This document shows, piece by piece, positions 24,411 to 38,582 of a DNA stretch of 64,000 bases; the first letter of the stretch is position 1, and each line of letters starts with the position of its first letter. The stretch is from a phage. The notes beneath the pieces are model-generated. The model was not told the DNA's origin. It worked only from the letters and a program-made list of their open reading frames with translations, and did no database searches. The stretch lies in sequence record PX853108.1; one strand, given 5' to 3'. Position numbers and translations under genes: made by a program.

Positions 24411-24472
24411 TAACTGGCTTACTGTAGAGTAAGTTACCTATATACGATATAAGTTTGAATAGGAAACATGCT

Positions 24473-27400
24473 ATGTCAACATTTGACCGTCTGGCAGGTT
24501 TCGCAGACAGCATCACTAATGCTAAGCAAGTCGATGTCTCTACTGCAACCTCCCGGAAGCAAGCTGCACAGGGGCAAAGCCCTTTCCAATTAACCCCAGA
24601 TAATGCTTACAATCTACAGACTGGACGAGTAGGTAATCTTGGAATCGGTGCATACGAACCAGGTTCACTTCAGGCAGATTTCACTCAAGCCTCCCCCTTA
24701 GAAATCATTAATAAATATGGTAATGAGCAAGGTCTACAGATTCTTAATAGTCGAGCTAATGCTGCTGATGCTGTACGTCAGGACTTATCTAAACAACGTA
24801 CTAACGCAGAAGCATTTGGCGATATCCTTTCTGGTGTTGGTCTTGGTGTTGCTAATACCCTTGGGGGCATTGCTGCTCTTGGCACAGGCTTGGTCAATGA
24901 TAATGCCGGGGCATCCATTGCTTCCGGTCTTGACTGGTTGAATAAAGGTGTACACAACCTACAGTCCGATGCACTGAATGCTCGCCGTAATGTAGTACAG
25001 AACCAGAACGTAATATCTGCACAGGAAAATGAGAAACTCTATAAGCAAGATATTGCTAAAGGAGAAAGCGAACTCGTTGCTTCCCTGTCTCGCATTGGTC
25101 GTGATGCTTACGATTCTGTTGCTAATACCCTGTCTAACGGCATGGCTGCTACTGATGGTATTGCTGAAGGTGTAGGTTCTCTGTTTACTGGTGGCCCATT
25201 AATCCGTGGTGTATCTGCACTCGGTAAGGTAATGGTAGGTGGAGATAAAGCTGTTAAGGGTATTACCTTAGCTGCTGAGTTAGGTTCACGTCCTGCACGG
25301 ATTGCACAGTCTGCTGGTCGTGTTGCTGCACCTGCTATAGCAATTGGTGGTATGGAAGCTGGTGGTGCATACCAACAGACTGCTAATGAAATTATGGAAA
25401 TGCCATTCAGTGAACTGGCTGCTAAATCTCCAGTATACCAACAGCATATTAAAGATGGTTTATCTCCTGAAGAAGCACGTCGTCAGACTGCATCTGAAAC
25501 AGGTATTACTGCTGCTGGCTTAACTGCTCCAGTTGCTGCTCTTACTGGTCCACTGGTATCCAAGTTTGAACTTAACCCACTCAAGGTAGGTTCACTGGCT
25601 GGTGCTGGTTCTAACATGCTGCGTGAGACTGTAGAAGAAGGTATCCAGTCTGGTACAAGTCAGTTCGCACAAAACACTGCAATCAAGGAAAATGTTGATG
25701 CATCTCGTGACATCCTCAAAGGTGTAGGCGAACAAACTGGTCTTGGTGCATTGTATGGCTTTGGTTCTGCTGGGGTTGCTCAAGCTCCTGGTGCAACTGT
25801 TAAGGCTGCTGGTGCTGCCGTTGGTCCTGCTGTACGTACTACCCTGGCTGGTGCTTCTTTGGCTGGTAAGGCACTAGCAAAAGTAGCCTCCCCTATTACT
25901 AACATCCTGGTTCAGCGTGGTGAAGAAGTAGCTAAACGTAACGAACAGGCATCTCCTGTATCTGATGCTACGGTTAATGCTGCTGCACAGGAAGCTACTG
26001 CTCAGGCAGAACAGGCCCAGGCAACCGTACAGGAAGCAGTAGATGCAATGGATATTTCTCCAGAAGAGAAAGCTGCTGCTACCCAGTATGCTGCTGACTT
26101 AACTCAGGTAATGAAGTTTGATCCAGTAGAACTGGAACAAGCTAGCCCTACAGTCCGTGAAGCTGTTTCTGGTTCCACTAACCGTGTTGAAGCTATTCAG
26201 AAGATGGCTGACCTGGTTAATACTGCCGAAGACCCTAACGTTCAAATGGAAGCTGCAATCCAGATGTACGACAACATCATGTCTATGGATAGCTTCATTA
26301 ACCGTGACCCAGGTGCTCTGGCTAATCTGGAACAAGGCTCTCCTGCTGCTAATATCGTTGACCAATTCTCTGGCCTGATGGCTAACGTTCAGAATACACC
26401 GAAAGTACTTCGTGCATTCCGTGCTATTCATTCCATGATTCAGGAACAGGCAGAAGCAGGTAAACTGAAAGCTACTGAAGAAGCTAACCAAGCCCAGGCA
26501 AACAATATTGCCATGGCTGCTGATATGTCTCCAGAAGTACTGGATGCAGATTCAGTAAACATGGTTCTGAAACATGCAAGTGAAGGTAAGATTACACTGG
26601 GGAATCGTCAGCGTGCTGCCCTGCAATCTGCTGCTGCCTTGTTACAGGGTGCACGAGAATTTGACGCTAAAGCAGAAGAACTAGGCTTACGTCCTCAAGA
26701 CATTGTTAGTAAACAGATTAAAACCGACGAGTCTCGTTCTAATGAAGGCCAGTACTCTGCGTTGCAACATGCTAAACGCATTCGTTCTGCGTACAACTCT
26801 GGTAACTTCGATTTGGCTTCCGCTTATCTCGACGACTTTATGAAGTTCGCCCAGCACATGCAGAATAAGGTCGGAGCGTTGAATGAGCATCTGATTTCTG
26901 GGAATGCGGATAAGAATAAGTCTGTCCATTATCAGGCTCTTACTCCCTCCCGTGAATGGGTACGTAGTCGTACTGGCCTCGGTGTCAATCCGTATGATAC
27001 CAAGTCTGTTAAGTTTGCCCAGCAAGTAGGACTGGAAGCCAAGACCGTAGCTGATATTGCTAACGCACTTGCTACGGCTTACCCGGAGCTTAATGTTTCT
27101 CATGTTAAGGTTACCCCATTGGATTCCCGTTTGGACAAGCCTGCTGCCCAAGTAGTTAAAGAGTTCCGTCAGGGCAATCTTGATGCTGCTCAATCCCAAC
27201 AGACCAATGAACCAGTGAATCAGGTTGATGAATCTCCTGTTACAAAACAGGAACCAGTTACCCCTACTGTACAGACTAAACCCTCTGTTAGTGAAGCTGT
27301 TAAAACAGAACCTACTATTAAAGAGTCTAAACCACAGACTGCAAAAGAACCTGAGAACCAGTCTGAAAAACAGGATGCTGTTGAACAGCCTACTGAATCT

Positions 27401-30400
27401 GAAAGGGATGCTTATGTAAAAGAGAATACTATTTCTCAAGAAACTCTTAATAAGTATGGTGACCGTAGGGAGAGTCCTTGGCTATTTGCTGATGGTACTG
27501 TTGTTGGTTCCAATGGTGACCATATCAGCCTGTCTGATGTATTTGGTCATGATGGTTATCGTGACATGTCTTTGGATACTGGTGCTGTACGTTCTACTTT
27601 CTACAAAGGAAGTGAGCAACCGTTCGTATCCCTGCAATTGTTTGATAATCAGAAGCTAACTGCTGAACAATTCAATACTGTTCAATCATTCGTAGAAGCA
27701 AACAATGCACTGATTCAGATTGGTGTAGATACATCTGGGCTTAATACCAATAACGTTGAGAAAGAAGAAGTATCACTGGCTCAACTGAAAGCAGACTATA
27801 CCGTTGGTGGTAAACCCCTATCTCAAATGGAAACAGTGTTCCCTGTCTATAACAATGAAAAGACATCGAACCAGTTCCTTAAAGCATTTTCTCTACCAGA
27901 GGAGCCTAAGTCTCGTACCATTGGTTCTGAATCTCCTTTGACTGATGTTAAGAAAGCACTGTCTTCTGCTGCCCGCTTTGAAGCATTCACTCAAAAAGAA
28001 AATAACGCACTCACGAGTGATGTGATTAAGCGTTACCAGGATTTGTTTGATTTTGGTGAAACTTTGAAGACCACTCTGTCTGACCGTCTGGCTAAGTTCC
28101 TTGCTAACAAGAACGTTGGTAAACGTTTTGCAGAAGGTACTGAGGCTAACCGTTGGGTGGGTGGTAAGTTACTTAACATCGTAGAGAAAGATGGTGATAC
28201 CTTTAAGTTCAACGACCAGTTGTTAGAGACTGCTGTACTTGCAGGTTTGCAATGGCGACTAACTGCTACACAGAATGCTGCTGTTAAAGACATGAAAGAC
28301 GTAGCTGCTATTACTGGTGTGGAAGCATCTCTGCTACCAGAAGGTATCCTCGCAGAGTTTGAGAATGCTCAAACCTTAGTAGAGGCTACTAACTCACTGG
28401 CTCAGAAGATTGAATCCTATTGGGGGCTTAATCGTAATGCTGATGCACCATTGGGTTATACCAAGGGTATCCCAATGGCAATGGCTACAGAGATTCTGTC
28501 TTCTCTCATTGAGATGGGTGAAGTTAAAGAGTCCATGCTGGATGTGTCTGAGATTGACCCAGAATCTAATAAGACCGTTGGTTTGTATACCATTGAGAAG
28601 TTAGATGATAACGATGCCATTAATAAATTCCCTACTGCTATTGAGGAAGCAGTCCTTCTAGAACCAGTAGAGAAATTGTACTTGGGTGATGATATTCCTT
28701 CAGTGGCTCAAACTCAGTTACGTAACCCGGCTGTCAAGAATACCCCGGAACAGAAAGCTGCTCTTAAAGCAGAACAGGCTACTGAGTTCCGTGTACACAT
28801 GCCCATGGTTAACTTCTATGAAGCATTGGGTCGTGACAACATTCTGGAATTGATGGGTGCTGGTGCTCTTAACCCAGAATTGCTGAATGTGAATACTGCT
28901 AAATCTCTGGAAGGTAAAAACCTGTCCGTGTCTATGGCATATGATTCCTTGTTTGGTGTTATCAATCAGATTAAGGAACAGGAGAATGGACTGGATACAC
29001 CTATTCACTATGGTTACAACATGACCCGTGTAGGTCGTATGCAGATGCTTGGTAAAAATAACCCACAATCCAGTAAGCTGGTCCGTGAAGCAATCTTACC
29101 AACCTTCTCTACCATCGACTTGAGCAATGAAAACAGTCAAACGTTCTCCGATTTCCAGTTAGGTCTGGCTCAGGCATTGGGCATCAAAGTTCATAAAATG
29201 TCTCGCGAAGTTATGTCAGATGAACTGACTAAAGCTCTGGAAGGTAAACTGAAACCTGCCGTTGATATGATGGTTGAGTTTGATAAGTCTGGACACTTAC
29301 CTACTGATGCAGTGGATATTCTGAAGACCTCTTTGGGTAATGATAAATCATTTGTAGCTCTCATGGCTCTTATGGAATATGCCCGTTACCTTAACAGTGA
29401 TGACCGTGCCAACTTTAATACCCCACTGTACGTTGAAGCTGATGGTGTAACCAACGGACCAATCAACGCAATGGTATTAATGACTGGTGGTAAGTTCACC
29501 CCAGACTGGATTAAGAATACTGCTAAAGGTGGCTTGTTCTTCGGTAAAGCTGGCAAGACTATGAACGAGCATCATTCGCACGAGGACAGTGTTGACCTGT
29601 ATGAAGCATCCACTAATGGTCTGCAACAAGCACTGAATGAATTACGTAGTACTTACCGTAACAACGTTCCTGTTATGAACCAGATGAACCATCTCCAGAA
29701 ATTAATGGACCTGTTCATTAAAGATTTCAATCTTAAGGAAGATGGTACTCTGGACCTGAAACGTGGTATTGCGAAAAACCCACTGACCATTACCATTTAT
29801 GGTTCTGGTGCTCGTGGTATTGCTGGCAAGATGGTTAGTGCAATTACTGATACCATCTACGAACGCTTCAGTGACGTTCTACAAGCTCGTGCTGCTGACC
29901 CTAGCATTTCACCAGCTATGGCTATGTTTGGTAAGGAGGCTGCGTCTGAGGCTGATGCTCAGGCTATGCTGGATACTTTCCTTACTTCTATGGAAGCATT
30001 GACTGGCAATGTTCCGGTTATGCGTAAAGGTGAGTTGTCTATTCAGCAGGTAGAAGGTGCTCTGACCGGTAAATTAGACCCTCAGAAGTTTACTGTATCA
30101 GGCAATGCTCTGAAGAATTTACAAGAGAACATGCTTCACTTGTTCGTTGAACCAATGCGTACTGGTATCCGAAATACTGTTGGCGAAGGTTTGATGTACT
30201 CTACTGAGAATTTGCAGAAGGCTACCCAGATTCAGTCTCTGGTATTGCAGGATATGTTCCAACAGGCAGTACAGGCTAAGCTGGCAGAAAAAGAAAAAGA
30301 CCCAACATGGAAGAAAGGTGATTTCTTAACACAGAAAGAACTGAATGAAATCCAGAATAGCTTAGCTCCACTGGCTCCAATGATTGAGACTGGTTCACAG

Positions 30401-33400
30401 ACTTTCTACATTGCTGGTAGTGAGAATACTGATGTTGCTAACCAAGTATTGGCTACTAACTTAGATGACCGTATGCGTGTACCAATGAGCATCTATGCTC
30501 CTTCACAGGCAGGCGTTGCAGGTATTCCGTTTATGACCATCGGTACTGGTGATGGCATGATGATGCAGACCCTTTCTACTATGAAAGGTGCTCCGAAGAA
30601 TACCCTGAAAATCTTTGATGGTATGAACATTGGTATCAACGATATCACCGATGCAAGCCGTAAAGCTAATGAGGCTGTATATACTTCCTGGCAGGGTAAC
30701 CCTATCAAGAATGTTTATGATTCCTTTGCTAAGTTCATGAAGAATGTAGACTTCAGTAAACTGTCTGATGAAACCAAACAGGCTATCGCTAAGTCTGCTC
30801 TGGAGTATGACCAGCGTGAGGGTGCTACCGATGACCTGTTACGTGTTGGTGCTGAACAGATTGAACGTAACCTGCGTAACATTGCTTTGGGTGTAGATAT
30901 TCGTCACAAGGTAATGGACCAGGTACAGGTCACCGTTGACCAGATGGCTGCTGTTGGTGCTCCTTACGTGAACAACGGTAAAATCTCTCTGGAAGGTCTG
31001 ACTGTAGACCAGCAAGTAGCTAAGCTGAACGAACTGTTTGATGCTGAATTAAACAAACGTCGTGATGCAGTTCGTGCTGCTAAAGCAGAACCAGTGAAAG
31101 AAGTACCGGCTATGGAGAAGGTTGGTCGTGTACTGAAGTCTGGTGTACGTCTGTTGTCTAATACTGCCATTACTAAGCTGGCTAAAGAGATGTCTCCTGA
31201 ACAGCAAGCAGTATTGAAAGAAATACAGAAATCCCTCGCTGCTAAAGACTATAAGGTTGTTTACGGTACACCTGCTCAACTGGATGCTTATGCTATTGAG
31301 AAGAATATTACTCGCCCAGCACCGGAAGATATTGAAGCTGCTGAAGCTGGTAATGCATATGGCTGGACTAACTTTGAAGATAAGACCATCTACTTAGTTA
31401 CCCCTTCCTTAGAGACTCTGGTTCATGAATTGGTACATGCTACTACTTTTGAATCTGTACTGGCTCATTATGAGGGTACTCCTAATGAAGCAGTACAGAA
31501 TATTGAAGACCTGATGAACCAGTTCCTTACTCTGGATGTTAAGGATGAATCTCCGGCTGTACGTGAAGCGTATGCCGATGCACTGAATACCATTAATGGT
31601 CATTTGTCTAATGGCTTCATTGAACCCGCAATGGCTAAAGCTGCTGCATTGAACGAGTACATGGCTTGGGGTTTAACCAACCGTGAACTGATTAGCAAGC
31701 AGAAGAAAACTACTGCACTTAAAACTATGGTTCAGGCTGTATATGAAGCAATCAAACGTCTGGTATTTGGACGTAAGAAAGCTCCAGCTAATGCAGATGA
31801 TATGTTCTCTGGCTTACTGTTTAACTCTGCTGTAGTAATGCGTGGGCAAGCTCCTACTGCTGCTGTAGCTAAAGACACTACTCTGTTCCATAACAAAGCA
31901 TATGGTGACAATACTCGTCTGGAAGAGTTAGGTAAGACCTTTGATAAACTGATTACTGACTACATTGGTTCAGAACCAGTACAGCAAGTAATTCGTAAAG
32001 GTAAATTCTCTGATGCAGTAGTGAATGCAACTAAAGTAACCCGTGATGTTCAGGCTCATGGCTTCACCATGAATATGCAGGAACAACGCCTCTTCACTAA
32101 CATTGTTGCTGCATTGGCTACTGAGGCTGCTATTAACCCTGCTGCTCTTGCTCGTGCACAGGAATACTACACGCATGTTACTAAAAACCTGACTGTTGAA
32201 GCATTTATGGCTGACCCTGATAGTACTAACCCTGCTGACCGTTATTATGCACAGCAGAAGTTCGATACTATCATGGGTGCTAACAACATTGAGTTTGATG
32301 CACAAGGTCGTTCTTCCTTACTGCCTACCTTTGTTGGTCTGGCTATGGTAAGTGAAGAAGTACGTAAGGTTCTGGCTGATATTCCTGTTATGAAAGCAGA
32401 TAAGAAATCAGGCAATACTGTTGACGCAATGCTGACTAACATTGGTACTGCTGCAATGGCTAGCCTGAATGCTCGTGTAGCAGGTGATACTAAAGCCACT
32501 AACGTACAGGAAGGTATGGATGCACTGGCTCAGACAATCATGCAGACCAGTCTTAATGCAGAATCCTTCTATGATTCCGTTGCTACCCCTACTGGTAATG
32601 CTATCGACCGTGCTAACCAGTATCTGGTGGATTCTATTGATGTACTGTCTACCCGTGCTTTGGAAGGTGCTCGTGAAGTTGCAGCTAATACCAAGAACCC
32701 GTTGGTTAAAGGTGCTGCTCATGCTGCACAATTGGTAGCTGCTATTGCTACAGAGAAGAATGGTGCAATCGTAGCCGAAGGTGTTATGGCTGCAATGAAC
32801 CAGGGTAAAGTATGGCAACCCTTCCATGACCTGGTTAATGACATAATCGGACGTACTAAGAGCAATGCTTCTGTATACGATTTGATTAAAGCAGTTCGTG
32901 CACAGGTACAGGCTGACCGTCAACAGTTCCGTGAACACTTGCCTACCACTATCGCATCCAAGTTCAGCCGTAAGCTGACTAATGATGAGTGGAAAGCAAT
33001 GCATACAGGTATGGGTAAAACTGACTTAGCTGTTCTGCGTGACACTATGTCTCTGGATGAAATCCGTGACCTGCTGTCTGACCAAAAGATTGTTGACCGT
33101 GAGGTTAATAAACTGGAAGCAGATTTGCAGAAACAAGCAGGACGTAACTGGCCTCTGATTAGTCGTAAATCTAAGCAACTGGCTCAGTACATGATTAATG
33201 GTACGGTTGGTAATAACCTGTTGCGTAATGCTACTGCAATTTCTCGTTTACTGGGTGAACGTAAGACTACACGTTCTGTTGTAGATGTAGCTCAACTGGA
33301 TAAACTCATTACCCTGTATGCACTGGAAGCAATGAATAAAACTGACCGTGAGATGTTATCTTCACTGGCTCAGACAGAAATTGAAGGTATGGACTTTGCT

Positions 33401-35227
33401 ACTTCTTACCTGGTTGGTCAGCGTAAAGATGAAATGGCTAAAGCTAAGTCTGATAGTCGTGCAACCCTGAACCAGTACAAAGGGTATATTCCTGGTGAGA
33501 ACAAACAGGGTGTTAACCTGATTGTTGCTGAAGATAGTCAGTTTGCTGATTTGATTGAGAAATCCTATGTACGACTGGGTACTTATCAGGGTAGCTCTGC
33601 TAATCGTGGTCCAGCACGTAGTTACTACTTTGCACCGGTACAGGCACAGGCTCCATTCTCACAAGGTATCCTACAGAACGTTCGCAATACTGCTGGTGGC
33701 GTAGACCTTGGCACAGGCTTTACGATGGGAACCATGGTAGCTGGTCGTATTACTGACAAGCCTTCTGTAGACCGTATCACTAAAGCACTGGCTCGTGGTG
33801 AACGCGGTAATGAACCACTGCTGCCTGTATATGATGCCAATGGTAATGTGGTTGCTTACGAGCAATCCATTGACCCTAACATGCTGAAGCACATCGAAGG
33901 TGAGAACCATCTTGCTCGTGCAATTGGTGTATGGCGTGGTCGTCAGGTGGAAGAAGCTAAGGCTCAGCGTTTCAACGATATGCTGATTGAGAACCTGCAT
34001 AGCATGTACGAGAACGACATTAAGATGTCTGCTTCTAATAAGTCCCAGTACGTTAACCTTCTTGGTTCGAAACTGGACCCAGTAACTGCCGATGCTCTTA
34101 AACTGATGAACAGTGAAACTCGTCAGAAAGCAGAAAGTCTGTTTGGACCGGGTGAGTTGTGGGTACGTCGTGACATGCTCAACGATGCACTGGGTTATCG
34201 TGCAGCTTCTGTTGGTGATGCCTGGTCTGGTAATTCTCGTTGGTCCCCAGAAACACTAGATACCTTCAAGAAAGCTATGCTGGGTGTCTTTGGAAACCGT
34301 GCTTATAAGTACGTAATGGGTGGTGAGAATCTGGTTCAAAACTTAGTTAAAGAAGCCAAGACTCTGATTGTAGTTAAGTCAGTAGTCGTACCTGCTGTTA
34401 ACTTCCTGGCTAACCTTTACCAGATGGTTGCTCGTGGTGTACCTGTTAAGAACATTGCTAAGAGCATCCCACAGAAAACTGCTGAGATTAATCAGTATCT
34501 GAAATCTCGCCTGCGTCAGGTAGATGCAGAAGCAGAATTACGTGCAGCTACTAACCCTAACCAGATTCGTAAGCTGAAGGCTGAGATTCAGTCCATCACG
34601 GATAGCCATAAGCGTTTGAGTATCTGGCCTCTGTTAGAAGCTGGTGAGTTTTCTTCAATTGCAGATGCTGGTATTGGACGTGATGACATCCTGATTACTG
34701 AAGGTAAACTTCACGAATACATGGAAAAGCTGGCTGATAAGTTGCCTAAGTCTGTACGTAATGCTGGTCGTTATGCACTTATCACTAAGGATACTGCTCT
34801 CTTCCAGGGTATCCAGAAGACGGTTGAGTACTCTGACTTTATTGCTAAAGCAATCATCTATGATGAACTGACTCAGCGTAAAGGTAAGACCCGAGAAGAA
34901 GCACTCGGACGTGTAACGGAAGAGTTCATTAACTATGACCGTTTGCCTGGCCGTTTCCGTGGGTATATGGAAAGTGTTGGTCTGATGTGGTTCTACAACT
35001 TTAAGATTCGTTCTGCAAAAGTTGCAGTGTCCATGATTCGTAACAACCCAGTACATGCTGCTATGGCTATGTTGGCTCCAACTCCTACCATGTTTGGTAA
35101 CGTTGGTCTGCCTATTAAGGACAACATCTTTAGTATTGCTGCACAGGGCAACCTCGGTTACTCCTTCGGATTCGGTATGGGCTTACGTGCCCATACCCTG
35201 AACCCGTGGCTCAACCTCACTAACTAA
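24473..35227 (+). CDS. Virion-encapsidated RNA polymerase (N4 gp50-like giant vRNAP)
   Basis: ORF 24455-35227 begins at TTG; first ATG with RBS AGGAAA is 24473 (~3,584 aa). Central region has T7-like motif A (ADGVTNG, nt ~29423), motif B (RGIAKNPLTITIYG, nt ~29762) and motif C (IFDGMNIG, nt ~30611). Confidence 0.85.
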   Translation: MSTFDRLAGFADSITNAKQVDVSTATSRKQAAQGQSPFQLTPDNAYNLQTGRVGNLGIGAYEPGSLQADFTQASPLEIINKYGNEQGLQILNSRANAADAVRQDLSKQRTNAEAFGDILSGVGLGVANTLGGIAALGTGLVNDNAGASIASGLDWLNKGVHNLQSDALNARRNVVQNQNVISAQENEKLYKQDIAKGESELVASLSRIGRDAYDSVANTLSNGMAATDGIAEGVGSLFTGGPLIRGVSALGKVMVGGDKAVKGITLAAELGSRPARIAQSAGRVAAPAIAIGGMEAGGAYQQTANEIMEMPFSELAAKSPVYQQHIKDGLSPEEARRQTASETGITAAGLTAPVAALTGPLVSKFELNPLKVGSLAGAGSNMLRETVEEGIQSGTSQFAQNTAIKENVDASRDILKGVGEQTGLGALYGFGSAGVAQAPGATVKAAGAAVGPAVRTTLAGASLAGKALAKVASPITNILVQRGEEVAKRNEQASPVSDATVNAAAQEATAQAEQAQATVQEAVDAMDISPEEKAAATQYAADLTQVMKFDPVELEQASPTVREAVSGSTNRVEAIQKMADLVNTAEDPNVQMEAAIQMYDNIMSMDSFINRDPGALANLEQGSPAANIVDQFSGLMANVQNTPKVLRAFRAIHSMIQEQAEAGKLKATEEANQAQANNIAMAADMSPEVLDADSVNMVLKHASEGKITLGNRQRAALQSAAALLQGAREFDAKAEELGLRPQDIVSKQIKTDESRSNEGQYSALQHAKRIRSAYNSGNFDLASAYLDDFMKFAQHMQNKVGALNEHLISGNADKNKSVHYQALTPSREWVRSRTGLGVNPYDTKSVKFAQQVGLEAKTVADIANALATAYPELNVSHVKVTPLDSRLDKPAAQVVKEFRQGNLDAAQSQQTNEPVNQVDESPVTKQEPVTPTVQTKPSVSEAVKTEPTIKESKPQTAKEPENQSEKQDAVEQPTESERDAYVKENTISQETLNKYGDRRESPWLFADGTVVGSNGDHISLSDVFGHDGYRDMSLDTGAVRSTFYKGSEQPFVSLQLFDNQKLTAEQFNTVQSFVEANNALIQIGVDTSGLNTNNVEKEEVSLAQLKADYTVGGKPLSQMETVFPVYNNEKTSNQFLKAFSLPEEPKSRTIGSESPLTDVKKALSSAARFEAFTQKENNALTSDVIKRYQDLFDFGETLKTTLSDRLAKFLANKNVGKRFAEGTEANRWVGGKLLNIVEKDGDTFKFNDQLLETAVLAGLQWRLTATQNAAVKDMKDVAAITGVEASLLPEGILAEFENAQTLVEATNSLAQKIESYWGLNRNADAPLGYTKGIPMAMATEILSSLIEMGEVKESMLDVSEIDPESNKTVGLYTIEKLDDNDAINKFPTAIEEAVLLEPVEKLYLGDDIPSVAQTQLRNPAVKNTPEQKAALKAEQATEFRVHMPMVNFYEALGRDNILELMGAGALNPELLNVNTAKSLEGKNLSVSMAYDSLFGVINQIKEQENGLDTPIHYGYNMTRVGRMQMLGKNNPQSSKLVREAILPTFSTIDLSNENSQTFSDFQLGLAQALGIKVHKMSREVMSDELTKALEGKLKPAVDMMVEFDKSGHLPTDAVDILKTSLGNDKSFVALMALMEYARYLNSDDRANFNTPLYVEADGVTNGPINAMVLMTGGKFTPDWIKNTAKGGLFFGKAGKTMNEHHSHEDSVDLYEASTNGLQQALNELRSTYRNNVPVMNQMNHLQKLMDLFIKDFNLKEDGTLDLKRGIAKNPLTITIYGSGARGIAGKMVSAITDTIYERFSDVLQARAADPSISPAMAMFGKEAASEADAQAMLDTFLTSMEALTGNVPVMRKGELSIQQVEGALTGKLDPQKFTVSGNALKNLQENMLHLFVEPMRTGIRNTVGEGLMYSTENLQKATQIQSLVLQDMFQQAVQAKLAEKEKDPTWKKGDFLTQKELNEIQNSLAPLAPMIETGSQTFYIAGSENTDVANQVLATNLDDRMRVPMSIYAPSQAGVAGIPFMTIGTGDGMMMQTLSTMKGAPKNTLKIFDGMNIGINDITDASRKANEAVYTSWQGNPIKNVYDSFAKFMKNVDFSKLSDETKQAIAKSALEYDQREGATDDLLRVGAEQIERNLRNIALGVDIRHKVMDQVQVTVDQMAAVGAPYVNNGKISLEGLTVDQQVAKLNELFDAELNKRRDAVRAAKAEPVKEVPAMEKVGRVLKSGVRLLSNTAITKLAKEMSPEQQAVLKEIQKSLAAKDYKVVYGTPAQLDAYAIEKNITRPAPEDIEAAEAGNAYGWTNFEDKTIYLVTPSLETLVHELVHATTFESVLAHYEGTPNEAVQNIEDLMNQFLTLDVKDESPAVREAYADALNTINGHLSNGFIEPAMAKAAALNEYMAWGLTNRELISKQKKTTALKTMVQAVYEAIKRLVFGRKKAPANADDMFSGLLFNSAVVMRGQAPTAAVAKDTTLFHNKAYGDNTRLEELGKTFDKLITDYIGSEPVQQVIRKGKFSDAVVNATKVTRDVQAHGFTMNMQEQRLFTNIVAALATEAAINPAALARAQEYYTHVTKNLTVEAFMADPDSTNPADRYYAQQKFDTIMGANNIEFDAQGRSSLLPTFVGLAMVSEEVRKVLADIPVMKADKKSGNTVDAMLTNIGTAAMASLNARVAGDTKATNVQEGMDALAQTIMQTSLNAESFYDSVATPTGNAIDRANQYLVDSIDVLSTRALEGAREVAANTKNPLVKGAAHAAQLVAAIATEKNGAIVAEGVMAAMNQGKVWQPFHDLVNDIIGRTKSNASVYDLIKAVRAQVQADRQQFREHLPTTIASKFSRKLTNDEWKAMHTGMGKTDLAVLRDTMSLDEIRDLLSDQKIVDREVNKLEADLQKQAGRNWPLISRKSKQLAQYMINGTVGNNLLRNATAISRLLGERKTTRSVVDVAQLDKLITLYALEAMNKTDREMLSSLAQTEIEGMDFATSYLVGQRKDEMAKAKSDSRATLNQYKGYIPGENKQGVNLIVAEDSQFADLIEKSYVRLGTYQGSSANRGPARSYYFAPVQAQAPFSQGILQNVRNTAGGVDLGTGFTMGTMVAGRITDKPSVDRITKALARGERGNEPLLPVYDANGNVVAYEQSIDPNMLKHIEGENHLARAIGVWRGRQVEEAKAQRFNDMLIENLHSMYENDIKMSASNKSQYVNLLGSKLDPVTADALKLMNSETRQKAESLFGPGELWVRRDMLNDALGYRAASVGDAWSGNSRWSPETLDTFKKAMLGVFGNRAYKYVMGGENLVQNLVKEAKTLIVVKSVVVPAVNFLANLYQMVARGVPVKNIAKSIPQKTAEINQYLKSRLRQVDAEAELRAATNPNQIRKLKAEIQSITDSHKRLSIWPLLEAGEFSSIADAGIGRDDILITEGKLHEYMEKLADKLPKSVRNAGRYALITKDTALFQGIQKTVEYSDFIAKAIIYDELTQRKGKTREEALGRVTEEFINYDRLPGRFRGYMESVGLMWFYNFKIRSAKVAVSMIRNNPVHAAMAMLAPTPTMFGNVGLPIKDNIFSIAAQGNLGYSFGFGMGLRAHTLNPWLNLTN

Positions 35228-36174: not shown

Positions 36175-36450
36175 TCAGCTTAGTGTTGTTGATTTAACAT
36201 AGGTTTCCCGGAATATATCCGGTTTACAAGGATATAACTCCCCATGTATGCCCTGGATAATATAGTCATTAGGTGAAGCAGTTAAGATACCCTCCAAGGT
36301 TCTAATACATAATTTACTATCATTCCCAGAGAACCAGACTACCCCATTACGAAGGGCATCTACTATCCAAGCTGGTTCTTTGTTCAGATTAAGACTTCCG
36401 TCCCATTGAAAAGCTTCAATCTCAACAGGTTTTTTACGATATTTAGCCAT
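36175..36450 (-). CDS. Hypothetical protein
   Basis: ORF 36175-36558 trimmed to ATG 36450 (MAKYRKKPVEIEAFQWDG), which has AGGAGA at 7 nt; the longer form would run through a terminator hairpin. Confidence 0.45.
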   Translation of the reverse strand: MAKYRKKPVEIEAFQWDGSLNLNKEPAWIVDALRNGVVWFSGNDSKLCIRTLEGILTASPNDYIIQGIHGELYPCKPDIFRETYVKSTTLS

Positions 36451-36467
36451 AGTATTTCTCCTACTTT

Positions 36468-36497
36468 CAAATAAAAAAGTCCCTCCGAAGAGGGACT
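36468..36497 (-). terminator. Intrinsic terminator (minus strand) downstream of the tRNA region
   Basis: Stem AGTCCCTC/GAGGGACT with CGAA loop; the minus strand reads the hairpin followed by TTTTTTATTT. Confidence 0.6.
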
Positions 36498-36754
36498 TAG
36501 TAGCTTTAACGCAGCTAACGAGGCTTGTATGAGTGCTAGGATTTGTAACTCCCAGCATATCCCCACCGTTTTAGCTGACGGCAAACAGAGATTGATAGTC
36601 TCAGAGGATACTTTACTCAGGCGAGTATTATAGTCTACTCATACTCACACTACCCTAACGGGTAGTATGTTTGCAATACCTAGAGTGCCGGACTGTCTCA
36701 CCGGCATTGTCTTTAGAGTGCAATGCAATCAGGACTATGTTCTCTATTAATGAG

Positions 36755-36828
36755 TACCCACTACTGGATTTGAACCAGTGACCTTCCGATTATTAGTCGG
36801 TTGCTTTCCCCGTCTAAGCTAAGTGGGC
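36755..36828 (-). tRNA. tRNA, hand-folded anticodon AAT (Ile?); no encoded CCA
   Basis: Minus-strand sequence GCCCACT-TA-GCTT-AGACGGGGA-AAGC-A-ACCGA-CTAATAA-TCGGA-AGGTC-ACTGG-TTCAAAT-CCAGT-AGTGGGT-A: 7-bp acceptor (G1-U72), D arm, T arm with TTCAAAT loop, 7-nt anticodon loop with U33 and A37. A34 is unusual. Confidence 0.7.
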
Positions 36829-36833
36829 ATAAA

Positions 36834-36909
36834 TGGTTACCCGGACAGGATTCGAACCTGTGTCCTAGTTGGTTTACTAGTGGGGCTTTACCACTAAGCC
36901 TACCGGGTA
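36834..36909 (-). tRNA. tRNA-like gene with encoded CCA but non-canonical anticodon arm
   Basis: Minus-strand TACCCGG-TA-GGCT-TAGTGGTAA-AGCC ... ACAGG-TTCGAAT-CCTGT-CCGGGTA-A-CCA: perfect acceptor, D and T arms; the anticodon region CCACTAGTAAACCAACTAGG folds only as a 5-bp stem with 6-nt loop or 4-bp stem with 8-nt loop. Confidence 0.6.
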
Positions 36910-37493
36910 TTAATGAGTGAGTCACGCCAGACTTTAACTGGCTCCTTCTTCGCAATCCTTACATACCCCTACATAATTATTGCGTTAAGCTTTTTTGTTT
37001 AAGTTTAAGTGAAGGCGTTCTTGCTGACTCATAATAGGTTGGGCGTTTGACGAATGACTAGTTCGTTACTACCCGTTTGCCATAAGTACCTGGCGACTTT
37101 GGTTTGAGGTGGGAGTCCGAGTCCTGTACAGCCTTACCGTTCACACATTGGCAGCGTATCTAGAATAGCACTTCCGGCAACTGGATTTAACTGTTACACC
37201 TCAAATCTGGTAGGGGCGTCCAGAAGTCTCATCTGGTACTTACGCCGTCGTATGGTTACGACTTACCCCCATAATCTTTCTAATTCAGAGTAGCACTGCT
37301 CCACGTTTGGCCTTTGAACTCCGGGATGGATTAGTGCAATGCTACTTTGAATTAGTTGTCAGGGATTCCACCTGGCTCCATCTGTTTTTATAGTCACTCA
37401 GATATCGTCTGGACTCTTTACTATGGGACTCACCGGCTACTTAGAGTAACTACGGTAAATATTATTCCACAGCTTACATTGATGTCGCATCCC

Positions 37494-37577
37494 ATCAAAG
37501 AGTACACTAGCACTGGGCCACGCATAAGTGGGCATCGGCCTTCCTCCCACAGCTAATCTACTAATGTACTCATTGAT
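37494..37577. repeat. Repeat unit A bounded by 17-bp imperfect terminal inverted repeats
   Basis: 5' end ATCAAAGAGTACACTAG and 3' end CTAATGTACTCATTGAT are reverse complements at 15 of 17 positions; followed by a GC hairpin at 37582-37608. Confidence 0.5.
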
Positions 37578-37749
37578 TGGCCCCCCGTTTCTAATACATG
37601 GACGGGGGAACTCCACGGTCGTTTGATAATCAGGACGACTCACTCCTGACTGACGCTTGGCTTATTAGGCTGCCATCAGAACAACATCATCGTTTGCATT
37701 TATGTTATTGGTTCGTTTCTAAAAAACCGCATAATCGCTTACGAAAACT

Positions 37750-37850
37750 ATCAAAGAGTACACTAAGCACAGGTAGCTATCCTGCCGTCTTCTCCACCTA
37801 CACCGGCTACAGTGTAAACCTCCGCACGTTAGCTTAATGTACTCATTGAT
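37750..37850. repeat. Repeat unit B, second copy of the TIR-bounded element
   Basis: 5' ATCAAAGAGTACACTAAG and 3' CTTAATGTACTCATTGAT (16 of 18 complementary); ends nearly identical to unit A, interior diverged but shares CTTC(C)TCC(C)AC. Confidence 0.5.
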
Positions 37851-38035
37851 AGGATGTCATAATAGGGGAGGGAGGACGAGTCCCTCTTTACCCTATGATT
37901 TAGTTTGCATGTAAGACCTAACAATTCGATGCTGTAGGTAGCTATGCTATCCGACATTTAACCCAGCCCATATAGGGGCTTATGTGATTAAAATGCTCAA
38001 CATTGAGCGGTTAGTTGATAAGGGATCTGAAGCCT

Positions 38036-38063
38036 TATCCCAAAGATACTAACCTTTGGGATA
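38036..38063. other. Perfect 10-bp stem hairpin in the ORF-free region
   Basis: TATCCCAAAG-ATACTAAC-CTTTGGGATA; neighbouring hairpins at 38080-38105 (AATGGCC / CCTATAGGGAGA loop / GGCCATT) and 38164-38194 (CTGACG...GGGG-GGCCA-CCCC...CGTCAG). Confidence 0.4.
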
Positions 38064-38582
38064 TAGCCTAAGATTCAGAAATGGCCCCTATAGGGAGAGG
38101 CCATTGATTAACCCGAATGTTGCTTTACCTTTTATGTGATAACCCATTCTTAAAATAGTCTAGCTGACGGATGGGGGGCCACCCCTAGCGTCAGTGCCAT
38201 ACGGCAAAGATTAAGTTAAGAAAGGTTATGATAGGAGTTCCTATCTCAAAGGATTCTAACAGAACCCTTCACGATATTAACTACTCAACGTGAAATTCTT
38301 TGATTCCCTCGACAGGTTCTACACCCCAGGAAAAAGCTAACTTTTCCATTTAATTTTGATTGAACCAATGGACTGGGGAGAGTATTCCAATCCACTGGTT
38401 CGGTTGTTGTTGTTACTCTGGCGGCTTGTCACCACCGTTTTTATCACTGAGTTTCCAAAGTATAAGCACAGTGATGATAAATGCTATGTATGGAGCCGAC
38501 ACGTCCAGAATCCTGATAAGCAATAGCATCAGAATTACGAACACTACCACAAATAGCAGCAGCTTCTGAGCCACCTACCAGA

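What the first reader, a model, noticed from the sequence alone, without database searches (positions are those of the whole stretch)
36743..37850. Recurring ACTCATT(A/G)AT motif flanking both tRNAs and ending both repeat units
On the minus strand (C/T)ACTCATTAATA lies immediately 5' of tRNA 36834-36909 and immediately 3' of tRNA 36755-36828; on the plus strand GTACTCATTGAT forms the 3' TIR of both repeat units. Four occurrences in ~1.1 kb suggest a shared promoter or processing signal.
Basis: seen in the sequence. Interest (0 to 1): 0.5.

Follow-up and report, generated by a model that had tools for sequence, protein, structure and literature searches.

The report
Stem arms bracketing phage RNA modules
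The repeated 10-mer is the two strands of a conserved RNA stem, plus look-alike tRNA trailers, that bracket small tRNA-like modules around an unannotated tmRNA-like tag-coding RNA in an N4-like phage; it marks RNA module borders rather than a promoter.

Summary
In detail: ACTCATTRAT occurs 4 times in 64 kb (0.45 expected), all within 1.1 kb. The window is a Gamaleyavirus (N4-like) genome. The motif lies in a ~1.9-kb non-coding island read on the minus strand, between gp46- and gp48-like middle genes.

The two plus-strand copies are the complements of the 5' arms (CUAUCAAUGAGUAC) of 19-21-bp closing helices. These helices close two stem-closed modules, U2 and U1. Their 3' arms (GUACUCUUUGAUAG) are two more, imperfect, same-strand copies. 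Across 17 distinct relatives the helix covaries (95% paired; G.U 33 cells versus A.C 5), so it is a minus-strand RNA structure.

The two minus-strand copies are AU-rich trailers after a tRNA-like module and after tRNA-Ile. They resemble the 3' arm, but the exact 10-mer is not kept in the nearest relatives.

U2's 3' arm ends exactly where a tmRNA-like tag module begins (tag ANDDVVLMAA**). Other phages have a promoter or a terminator at that point.

The motif is absent upstream of other genes, so a shared promoter is unlikely. A border or processing role is plausible but no transcript ends have been mapped. The tag module occurs in about 400 phage records, is unannotated, and has no recognisable tRNA-like domain.

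The parts
37748..37852 (-). Unit U2: stem-closed module of 105 nt. The closing helix is CUAUCAAUGAGUACAUUAAGC / GCUUAGUGUACUCUUUGAUAG (20 bp plus one U.U mismatch). The core is tRNA-sized and variable between relatives.
   Evidence: The helix covaries in 17 relatives.
37832..37852 (-). 5' arm of U2. Its plus-strand reading contains motif copy 37841-37850 (+).
37748..37768 (-). 3' arm of U2. It contains ACUCUUUGAU (37750-37759) and ends at GAUAG|UUUUCGU, the first bases of the tag module.
37580..37752 (-). tmRNA-like tag module: a pseudoknot-like region, then the resume codon GCA, a 10-codon tag, the stop codon inside a hairpin, a further hairpin and a pseudoknot.
37662..37697 (-). Tag reading frame GCA AAC GAU GAU GUU GUU CUG AUG GCA GCC UAA UAA = ANDDVVLMAA**
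37494..37577 (-). Unit U1: stem-closed module of 84 nt with the same arms, AUCAAUGAGUACAUUAGUA / UGCUAGUGUACUCUUUGAU. Its interior is 90% identical to the unit that lies upstream of the tag in relative L131.
37568..37577 (+). Motif copy 3, the complement of the U1 5' arm.
37494..37503 (-). ACUCUUUGAU in the U1 3' arm, a same-strand imperfect copy.
37280..37355 (-). Unit UA: a third stem-closed module with diverged arms, CUAAUUCAAAGUAGCAUUGC / GCAGUGCUACUCUGAAUUAG.
37023..37038 (-). Leader CCUAUUAUGAGUCAGC of the tRNA cluster. It resembles the unit 5' arm and is complementary to the tRNA-Ile trailer.
   Evidence: duplex -10.5 kcal/mol, P=0.002; invariant in Bp4 and nithesis
36919..37038 (-). 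Large tRNA-like module: closing stem UGAGUCA/UGACUCA, T-arm-like GCCAG UUAAAGU CUGGC, and CUC where CCA would be.
36909..36918 (-). Motif copy 2: trailer of the tRNA-like module and leader of the odd tRNA.
36834..36909 (-). Odd tRNA with an 8-nt anticodon loop and an encoded CCA. It is absent from Bp4.
36754..36828 (-). tRNA-Ile (anticodon AAU), with no encoded CCA.
36746..36755 (-). Motif copy 1: discriminator A, then CUC, then AUUAAU, forming the tRNA-Ile trailer.
36477..36498 (-). Intrinsic-terminator-like hairpin plus U run that ends the non-coding island.

Best explanation
The motif is not a DNA signal used four times. It is the sequence of a conserved leader/trailer 'frame' around the RNA modules of a polycistronic stable-RNA cluster transcribed from the minus strand. 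In units U2 and U1, the leader (CUAUCAAUGAGUAC) and the trailer (GUACUCUUUGAUAG) pair into a helix of about 20 bp with a conserved U.U mismatch. This helix closes a variable, tRNA-sized core. The tRNA cluster (tRNA-like module, odd tRNA, tRNA-Ile) carries a diverged copy of the same leader, and two copies of the trailer (ACUCAUUAAU) follow its members. Shown: the helix exists as a minus-strand RNA structure under selection, and it sits exactly at module borders. Inferred: the helix isolates the folding of each module. Also inferred: the helix, together with the AU-rich single-stranded trailers, gives host endonucleases cutting sites at the module borders (an RNase III-type cut in the duplex; RNase E, RNase Z/BN or RNase P at tRNA ends). 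This would release the tRNAs and define the 5' end of the neighbouring tmRNA-like tag RNA. The identical arms also offer homology for swapping cores between positions and between phages.
For: Strand and context: the flanking genes, both tRNAs, the terminator and the tag frame are all on the minus strand. No PHROG family matches the spurious ORFs in the island. Structure: both units fold better as minus-strand RNA (-31.7 and -37.3 kcal/mol, z -3.7 and -3.5) than as plus-strand RNA (-24.0 and -27.9). Covariation: in 17 distinct units from N4-like phages, 95.3% of cells are paired versus 86.8% in shuffles (0 of 500 reach the observed value). Nine pairs change on both sides, and slid controls give 34-52%. 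G.U cells number 33 against 5 A.C cells, and the mismatch column is U.U in 14 of 17. Border position: the 3' arm ends at GAUAG|UUUUCGU, 62 nt before AUGCAAACGA, in every N4-like relative, while the interior varies from 76 to 145 nt. At the same point Akira has a TTGACA-17-TAGATT promoter-like site and P1 has a terminator-like hairpin. Cassette behaviour: at least 9 interior types occur in one frame, and the window's U1 interior sits upstream of the tag in L131. tRNA link: the U2 3' arm aligns to the tRNA-Ile 3' end plus trailer (UAGUG..GUACUC.UU.AUAG; P=4.5e-4 per random 24-mer). The cluster leader pairs with the tRNA-Ile trailer (-10.5 kcal/mol, P=0.002). Some units in relatives carry a canonical T arm directly before the 3' strand, and annotators call such units tRNA-Cys, tRNA-OTHER or pseudo-tRNA.
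Against: No RNA ends, cleavage data or expression data exist for this island, so the processing step is inference from anatomy. The lower 14 bp of the helix are almost invariant, so most covariation comes from the upper stem. I also chose each 5' arm by best pairing, which inflates the paired percentage somewhat. The tRNA-flanking 10-mers are not kept in the nearest relatives: ACUUAUUAAU in Bp4, ACUUUUUAAU in nithesis, and CUCAUUUAU where the odd tRNA is missing. The similarity of the tRNA-like module's trailer to the arm is not significant on its own (P=0.05). The Rfam tRNA model does not recognise the unit cores. Several relatives have no unit downstream of the tag module, and Akira-type phages have none upstream, so the frame is not obligatory.
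Confidence: 0.6

Rival explanations
1. The helix is a functional part of a phage-encoded, split or permuted tmRNA. It would be the equivalent of tmRNA helix P2/H2, which in permuted tmRNA genes closes the tRNA-like domain just upstream of pseudoknot 1. In this reading it joins a tRNA-like unit to the tag module.
For: The helix abuts the pseudoknot-like region before the resume codon with fixed spacing. ARAGORN with relaxed thresholds calls a permuted tmRNA here, and Rfam tmRNA_permuted gives its best sub-threshold hit here. Some units in relatives carry a T arm with the UUCAACU loop. The tag frame is under coding constraint.
Against: The window's U2 interior has no T arm, no CCA and no acceptor halves in the permuted order. 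Where a T arm exists, it is in the standard order, not the permuted one. No acceptor stem with G3.U70 was found within 800-1000 nt of any tag module. Akira-type phages start transcription right at the tag module with no upstream unit.
Confidence: 0.15
2. A DNA-level element: terminal inverted repeats of a miniature mobile element, or recombination sites (attC-like) for exchanging small cassettes.
For: The units have inverted-repeat ends and variable interiors. The same interior occurs at different positions in different phages. The whole island is a mosaic shared with unrelated phages.
Against: G.U outnumbers A.C 33 to 5 in the helix, which favours one RNA strand. The sequence shows no target-site duplication: U2 is flanked by ACGAAAA and GATGTCA, and U1 by GCATCCC and TGGCCCC. 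No copies occur elsewhere in the 64 kb. The annotated neighbourhoods of the relatives looked at (Bp4, nithesis) list no transposase or integrase. The 3' arm is fused in fixed register to a structured RNA.
Confidence: 0.1
3. Only the two tRNA-flanking copies are a signal: an AU-rich 3' trailer cut by RNase E or RNase Z/BN. Their likeness to the unit arms is coincidence or a relic of a duplication.
For: The trailers read discriminator A, then CUC or CCA, then AUU(A/U)AU after three successive tRNA-type genes. The AUUAAUAG part is kept in relatives while ACUC varies. The similarity of the tRNA-like module's trailer to the arm is weak.
Against: The similarity of the tRNA-Ile end and trailer to the U2 arm extends over 18 aligned bases. 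The cluster leader is complementary to the trailer in the same arrangement as the unit arms, including an unpaired U.
Confidence: 0.1
4. A promoter for N4 RNA polymerase II, as a shared middle-gene promoter.
For: The known minimal N4 RNAPII promoter is short (-7 to +2) and AT-rich (PMC4496689). The motif contains AUUAAU.
Against: There is no copy upstream of any other gene in 64 kb, which covers most of a ~72-kb genome. One-mismatch hits lie inside ORFs and are not enriched. Two copies are on the wrong strand for a minus-strand transcription unit. The copies lie at 3' ends of RNA genes as often as at 5' ends.
Confidence: 0.03
5. Chance recurrence of a short AT-rich word.
For: The word is only 10 nt with one degenerate position, and it was found by eye.
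Against: 0 of 100 shuffles reach 4 copies. All copies fall in 1.1 kb, at module borders. The unit arms are conserved and covary in relatives.
Confidence: 0.02

Closest known systems
Leader-trailer processing stems of stable-RNA operons (RNase III stems around 16S/23S rRNA; RNase III sites of phage T7 early RNA)
   Same: Sequences flanking a stable RNA pair into a duplex of about 20 bp with an internal mismatch. The duplex sits at the border between units of a polycistronic transcript.
   Different: Cleavage has not been shown here. The enclosed RNAs are only 60-110 nt, and the same frame is reused for different small cores.
tRNA-type punctuation of polycistronic RNA (phage T4 tRNA cluster with its stable RNAs C and D; RNase P-made C4 RNA of phage P1; from my own knowledge)
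   Same: tRNAs and tRNA-like hairpins are strung together with other small RNAs in one transcript, and their ends are made by tRNA-processing enzymes.
   Different: The unit cores are not recognised by the Rfam tRNA model. Their leaders and trailers are base-paired, which ordinary tRNA precursors are not.
tmRNA (ssrA), including the circularly permuted two-piece genes (Rfam RF00023, RF04321)
   Same: The neighbouring module has a GCA resume codon and a 10-codon tag that starts AN(D/E) and ends (A/V)A. Its stop codon lies inside a hairpin, and covarying pseudoknots follow. A closing helix lies just upstream, as P2 does in permuted genes.
   Different: There is no recognisable tRNA-like domain, no G3.U70 and no CCA in the right place. 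The Rfam score is 33.4 bits, below the gathering score of 47. ARAGORN at default settings is negative. Nucleotide similarity to E. coli ssrA is not significant outside the tag.
STnc100 / PasD prophage sRNAs (Rfam RF02076; bioRxiv 10.64898/2026.05.13.724894)
   Same: These are stem-closed small RNAs in the same kind of phage or prophage non-coding island. In P1, Akira and HK633, an STnc100-like module follows a unit of the GGUAAGAGC type.
   Different: The window's own match is only 24 bits against a gathering score of 47, and it rests on the closing stem and the terminator. It is a different module from U1 and U2.
Miniature inverted-repeat elements and integron attC sites
   Same: These have imperfect inverted repeats with unpaired bases around a variable centre.
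   Different: Here there is no target duplication and no dispersed copies, and the annotated neighbourhoods of the relatives show no recombinase. There is also a strand-specific excess of G.U pairs.

Membership tests
tRNA (Rfam RF00005) | Cloverleaf scoring above the gathering score of 29 bits | tested here: met
   36755-36828 scores 64.8 bits and 36837-36909 scores 42 bits. ARAGORN agrees. This applies to the two tRNAs only.
tRNA (Rfam RF00005) | Units U1, U2 and UA recognised as tRNA | tested here: not met
   No tRNA hit at E<=10 on 36900-38400, nor on the T-arm-bearing units of L125.
tmRNA / permuted tmRNA (RF00023, RF04321) | Tag reading frame with a resume codon, no start codon, and a stop codon in a hairpin | tested here: met
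   ANDDVVLMAA**. All 19 distinct sequences have 10 codons plus UAA. The synonymous share is 26.5% in this frame versus 3.9% and 12.8% in the other frames.
tmRNA / permuted tmRNA (RF00023, RF04321) | Pseudoknots flanking the tag | tested here: inconclusive
   The downstream pseudoknots covary in the class B relatives (98.5% paired, 5 pairs with changes on both sides). The window's own (class A) downstream pseudoknot was read by eye only. The upstream helix is nearly invariant, and its second stem shifts register between groups.
tmRNA / permuted tmRNA (RF00023, RF04321) | tRNA-like domain: acceptor stem with G3.U70, T arm and 3' CCA, joined to the tag domain | tested here: not met
   None in the window. 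No G3.U70 acceptor near any of 61 tag modules.
tmRNA / permuted tmRNA (RF00023, RF04321) | Score at or above Rfam's gathering score | tested here: not met
   33.4 bits against 47.
RNase III processing stem | Duplex of about two helical turns formed by flanking sequences | tested here: met
   20 of 21 positions paired in U2 and 18 of 19 in U1. The helix covaries.
RNase III processing stem | Cleavage by RNase III in vivo or in vitro | not testable with these tools
   Needs RNA-end mapping in rnc+ and rnc- hosts.
N4 RNAPII middle promoter | Recurs upstream of middle transcription units | tested here: not met
   All exact copies lie in the island. One-mismatch hits are not enriched and lie inside ORFs.
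N4 RNAPII middle promoter | Initiation by RNAPII at an AT-rich -7 to +2 element (PMC4496689) | not testable with these tools
Primary 5' ends are needed.
Miniature inverted-repeat transposable element | Target-site duplication and dispersed copies | tested here: not met
   The flanks differ, and no copies occur outside the island.
STnc100 (RF02076) | Score at or above the gathering score of 47 bits | tested here: not met
   24 bits at 36467-36674. P1 reaches 33.9 bits.

The most novel reading that the evidence does not exclude
The conserved helix is the joint of a modular phage tmRNA. In this reading, enterobacterial phages (N4-like, P1, lambdoid, Vi1-like and others) encode their own trans-translation template. 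Its tag (AN[DE]xxx[LM]x[AV]A) is added to proteins on stalled ribosomes. The tRNA-like units held in the leader/trailer frame supply, or dock, the tRNA-like half. The motif would then be the piece that holds a split tmRNA together, or releases its parts.
Probability: 0.2. Interest if true: 0.9.

Novelty: new variant of a known kind. Interest (0 to 1): 0.6.

Why it matters
The motif itself turns out to be structural: a reusable paired leader/trailer frame around small tRNA-like RNAs. That frame explains why annotation pipelines scatter 'tRNA-Cys', 'tRNA-OTHER', pseudo-tRNA and short hypothetical proteins over this region in N4-like phages. The larger point is what the frame borders. It abuts a structured RNA with an ssrA-like tag frame under coding constraint. 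This RNA is present in about 400 phage records (including P1 and lambdoid phages) and in 157 of 5426 complete E. coli genomes. It is unannotated in the records listed. It is not among the phage tmRNAs named in the 2014 tmRNA census (PMC4131195), and the default detectors used for the 2025 database expansion (PMC11915505) do not pick it up here. If it works as a template, phages would be re-programming ribosome rescue or protein tagging. If it is a decoy, it would be a new way of interfering with the host tmRNA-SmpB system. Either possibility can be tested directly.

Tried and rejected
- A viral-contig scan with the 14-mer ATCAAAGAGTACAC returned 120 stretches. Nearly all were chance matches, though L057, L073, L106 and L119 turned out to be N4-like.
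- A genome-contig scan with the tag-module pattern gave 15 hits. Only 2 are real: Rouxiella and Pantoea.
- Literature searches found nothing on these elements. I searched for N4-like plus tmRNA, tmRNA-like, phage tmRNA, the unit sequences and the tag peptides. The tmRNA database papers name phage tmRNAs only from mycobacteriophages and Bacillus phage G.
- I looked for a consensus sequence of N4 RNAPII promoters and found only 'AT-rich, -7 to +2'.
- I tried to read U2 as the tRNA-like domain of a permuted tmRNA. Its interior has no T arm or CCA in the needed order.
- I tried to close the tag module with the U2 3' arm and the U1 5' arm. This is possible in the window, but the downstream arm is missing in about half of the relatives.
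- Pairwise alignment of the tag module to E. coli ssrA is not significant beyond the tag.
- Covariation for the helix upstream of the tag is uninformative because the columns are invariant.
- The Rfam tRNA model on units carrying T arms gave no hit.
- PHROGs searches on the ORFs overlapping the island gave no meaningful hit.
- I considered hammerhead and HDV-like ribozymes because of the CUGAUGG sequence and the nested pseudoknots. I dropped them: the core sequence does not fit, and no Rfam ribozyme family hit at E<=10.
Full report
**Where the window comes from.** The region is 94% identical to Escherichia phages PD38, Bp4 and ECBP1 (Schitoviridae, Gamaleyavirus). In the window the virion RNA polymerase gene is on the plus strand (24455-35227). 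The homologues of N4 middle genes gp43-gp49 are on the minus strand. The finding lies in a stretch of about 1.9 kb without credible genes (about 36470-38350). This stretch sits between a gp48-like gene and the orf34/35-like genes. Its short ORFs match no PHROG family. The island ends with a strong terminator-like hairpin on the minus strand at 36498-36477.

**The observation.** ACTCATTRAT occurs four times, at exactly the stated places. Shuffles give 0.45 on average, and none of 100 reaches four. The two tRNAs are real: Rfam gives 64.8 and 42 bits, and ARAGORN calls tRNA-Ile(AAU) plus an odd tRNA. The two 'repeat units' with inverted ends are also real. Relaxing the pattern to ACTCWTTRAT gives eight exact matches, six of them in 36746-37850. 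Allowing one mismatch gives 32 hits against 22.9 expected; the hits outside the island lie inside ORFs. The clustering is therefore real, and the word is not a genome-wide signal.

**What the plus-strand copies are.** On the minus strand the units read CUAUCAAUGAGUAC...GUACUCUUUGAUAG. The arms pair over 21 positions in U2 (37852-37748, 20 pairs) and 19 positions in U1 (37577-37494, 18 pairs). Each helix has one U.U mismatch. The plus-strand 'motif' is simply the complement of the 5' arm. The 3' arm, ACUCUUUGAU, is the same-strand relative of the tRNA-flanking copies. A third unit, UA (37355-37280), has diverged arms of the same type. Both U1 and U2 fold more stably as minus-strand RNA.

I collected the homologous unit from 17 distinct N4-like phages and contigs.
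- 95.3% of helix cells are standard pairs, against 86.8% after shuffling partners (0 of 500 shuffles reach this).
- Nine pairs show changes on both sides.
- Slid controls give 34-52%.
- G.U pairs number 33 against 5 A.C, so the helix is selected on the minus-strand RNA, not as DNA.
- The mismatch is U.U in 14 of 17.

Two caveats apply. The lower 14 bp hardly vary, so covariation comes mostly from the upper stem. I also picked each 5' arm by best pairing.

**The interiors are cassettes.** The arms are almost constant. The enclosed core differs in length (76-145 nt in total) and in sequence, with at least nine types among the 17. The window's U1 core is 90% identical to the core that sits upstream of the tag module in contig L131. 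Bp4 has a different tRNA-like element at the U1 position; its authors annotated it as tRNA-Cys(aca). Some cores in relatives carry a canonical T arm placed directly before the 3' strand. Examples are UUAGG-UUCAACU-CCUAA in the Klebsiella N4-like group and GAGGG-UUCGAAU-CCCUA in a P1 unit. The cores are tRNA-sized or mini-tRNA-like. The Rfam tRNA model does not recognise them, however, so 'tRNA-like' is meant loosely.

**What the minus-strand copies are.** Three tRNA-type genes follow one another.
- A large tRNA-like module (37038-36919) has a T-arm-like GCCAG-UUAAAGU-CUGGC.
- The odd tRNA follows.
- tRNA-Ile comes last.

Each ends with discriminator A, then CUC or CCA, then AUU(A/U)AU. Motif copy 36918-36909 is the trailer of the first module and the leader of the odd tRNA. 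Copy 36755-36746 is the tRNA-Ile trailer.

The alignment with Bp4 and nithesis shows that the exact word is not kept. The tRNA-Ile trailer is ACUUAUUAAU in Bp4 and ACUUUUUAAU in nithesis. Bp4 lacks the odd tRNA altogether; in the window that 79-nt segment is flanked by CAUUAAU and CAUUUAU.

The trailers do resemble the unit 3' arm. UAGUG(GG)UACUC(A/U)UU(A/G)AUAG aligns over 18 bases for tRNA-Ile (P=4.5e-4 per random 24-mer). The other trailer reaches only P=0.05. The tRNA cluster also has a leader, CCUAUUAUGAGUCA (37038-37025), which looks like the unit 5' arm. It can pair with the tRNA-Ile trailer (-10.5 kcal/mol, P=0.002), leaving one unpaired U near where the units have their U.U. I read this as the same leader/trailer frame around a three-gene payload. 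This part rests on one genome lineage and modest statistics.

**What lies between the units.** Rfam's permuted-tmRNA model gives its best sub-threshold match at 37768-37665 (33.4 bits, gathering score 47). The match is driven by the sequence AUAAAU GCA AAC GAU GAU GUU GUU CUG AUG GCA GCC UAA UAA, that is ANDDVVLMAA**. ARAGORN finds it only with relaxed thresholds.

The 170-nt module is shared with about 400 phage records from unrelated groups. In the loci I examined:
- In the N4-like phages the module is preceded by a unit whose 3' arm ends at its first bases.
- In phiMAM1 (Ackermannviridae) it lies in a tRNA region.
- In P1 it lies between dmt and tRNA-Asn.
- In the lambdoid HK633 it lies downstream of PR'/qut.
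- In Akira and Bas78 it lies next to the tail genes.

It also occurs in 157 of 5426 complete E. coli genomes, with nothing annotated under the listed matches. Among species-representative genomes, only Rouxiella and Pantoea hits are genuine.

In 61 loci there are 19 distinct tag sequences encoding 12 peptides.
- Every one has 10 codons followed by UAA.
- All start AN(D/E) and end (A/V)A.
- Synonymous differences make up 26.5% of codon differences in this frame, against 3.9% and 12.8% in the other two frames.
- The stop codon lies in a hairpin.
- In the class B relatives the hairpin and two pseudoknots downstream covary: 98.5% paired and five pairs changed on both sides. The window's own class A pseudoknot is supported by eye only.
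- The helix upstream of the resume codon is invariant and so uninformative.

This is the architecture of a tmRNA messenger-like domain. I found no tRNA-like domain with G3.U70 attached to it or near it. Similarity to E. coli ssrA is not significant outside the tag. The 2014 tmRNA census names phage tmRNAs only from mycobacteriophages and Bacillus phage G. No paper in the library contains these tag peptides.

**How the motif most likely works.** In every N4-like relative the unit's 3' arm ends at GAUAG|UUUUCGU, 62 nt before AUGCAAACGA. At that same nucleotide, Akira- and Bas78-type phages have a promoter-like site, TTGACA-17-TAGATT. P1 has a terminator-like hairpin with a U run. HK633-type phages have a homologous unit with arms AUCAGGUAAGAGCA/UGUUCUUUCCGAU. 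Downstream of the module, most non-N4 phages carry another unit of that second type, often followed by an STnc100-like tRNA-like minihelix. The helix therefore marks a border of the tag RNA.

My best reading is that the paired leader/trailer isolates each module's fold. It would also present a duplex of about 20 bp, and AU-rich single-stranded trailers next to the true tRNAs, to host processing enzymes. The polycistronic transcript would then be cut at module borders. The structure and the placement are shown; the cutting is inferred.

The identical arms would also promote exchange of cores, which fits the cassette pattern.

**Rivals.**
- A role of the helix inside a split tmRNA (equivalent to helix P2) remains possible and is the most interesting reading. 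The window's unit lacks the required parts, however.
- A DNA-level mobile element is disfavoured by the G.U excess, the lack of target duplications and the lack of dispersed copies.
- A shared RNAPII promoter is disfavoured by distribution and by strand.
- Chance is excluded.

**Novelty.** Leader-trailer stems and tRNA-type punctuation are known kinds of signal. A constant frame reused for varied small tRNA-like cores, flanking a tmRNA-like tag module, appears not to be described in the sources I could search. I rate it a new variant of a known kind. The interest comes mainly from the neighbouring tag module.

Noticed in passing
window 37580-37752 (-): Unannotated tmRNA-like tag module (tag ANDDVVLMAA**) with covarying pseudoknots in relatives. 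It is shared by about 400 phage records, including P1, lambdoid, Vi1-like and N4-like phages, and by 157 of 5426 E. coli genomes. No tRNA-like domain with alanine identity was found.
   Followed up: partly
window 36834-36909 (-): Odd tRNA with an 8-nt anticodon loop (UAAACCAA) and an encoded CCA. It is present in the window and in nithesis but absent from Bp4. The 79-nt indel is flanked by CAUUAAU and CAUUUAU.
   Followed up: partly
window 36919-37038 (-): Large tRNA-like module with a degenerate T loop (UUAAAGU) and CUC in place of CCA. Relatives carry similar modules with a perfect 7-bp acceptor stem, a canonical T arm and A-CCA. In these, 96-153 nt lie between the acceptor 5' strand and the T stem (L057, L127, L131, L001, L002).
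   Followed up: partly
window 37280-37355 (-): Third stem-closed unit (UA) with a 19/20-bp closing helix and an acceptor-like GCAUUGC/GCAGUGC. A variant with different arms (CCAAUUCGAGGU...) occupies the same position in L127, L129 and L131.
   Followed up: partly
window 36467-36674 (-); L133 1165-1285 (-): Sub-threshold matches to the prophage sRNA family STnc100 (24 bits in the window, 33.9 bits in P1). In P1, Akira and HK633 this tRNA-like minihelix directly follows a GGUAAGAGC-type unit, and in HK633 it ends in G-CCA.
   Followed up: partly
window 37857-38045, 37110-37415, 37362-37415: The island is a mosaic. Separate blocks match Kuravirus phages (SU10, Bas87), phage N4 itself (95%), and Klebsiella prophage-like and T7-like phages. 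Their roles are unknown.
   Followed up: no
window 36754-36828 (-): tRNA-Ile has the anticodon AAU (A at the wobble position) and no encoded CCA. Both are unusual for bacterial tRNAs (from my own knowledge).
   Followed up: no
window 38025-38074 (-): Long hairpin with 21-nt arms and an 8-nt loop near the start of the island. Other small hairpins lie at 38083-38104 and 38160-38199.
   Followed up: no
window 36450-36558 (-): The gp48-like ORF is listed from an ATG at 36558. That start lies upstream of the terminator-like hairpin. An ATG at 36452-36450 preceded by AGGAGA looks like the real start.
   Followed up: no
L001 (Bp4), about 233 nt upstream of the tag, RNA sense: Bp4 has an extra 72-nt tRNA-like element, called tRNA-Ala(cgc) by ARAGORN, inserted just upstream of unit U2. 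The window lacks it.
   Followed up: no
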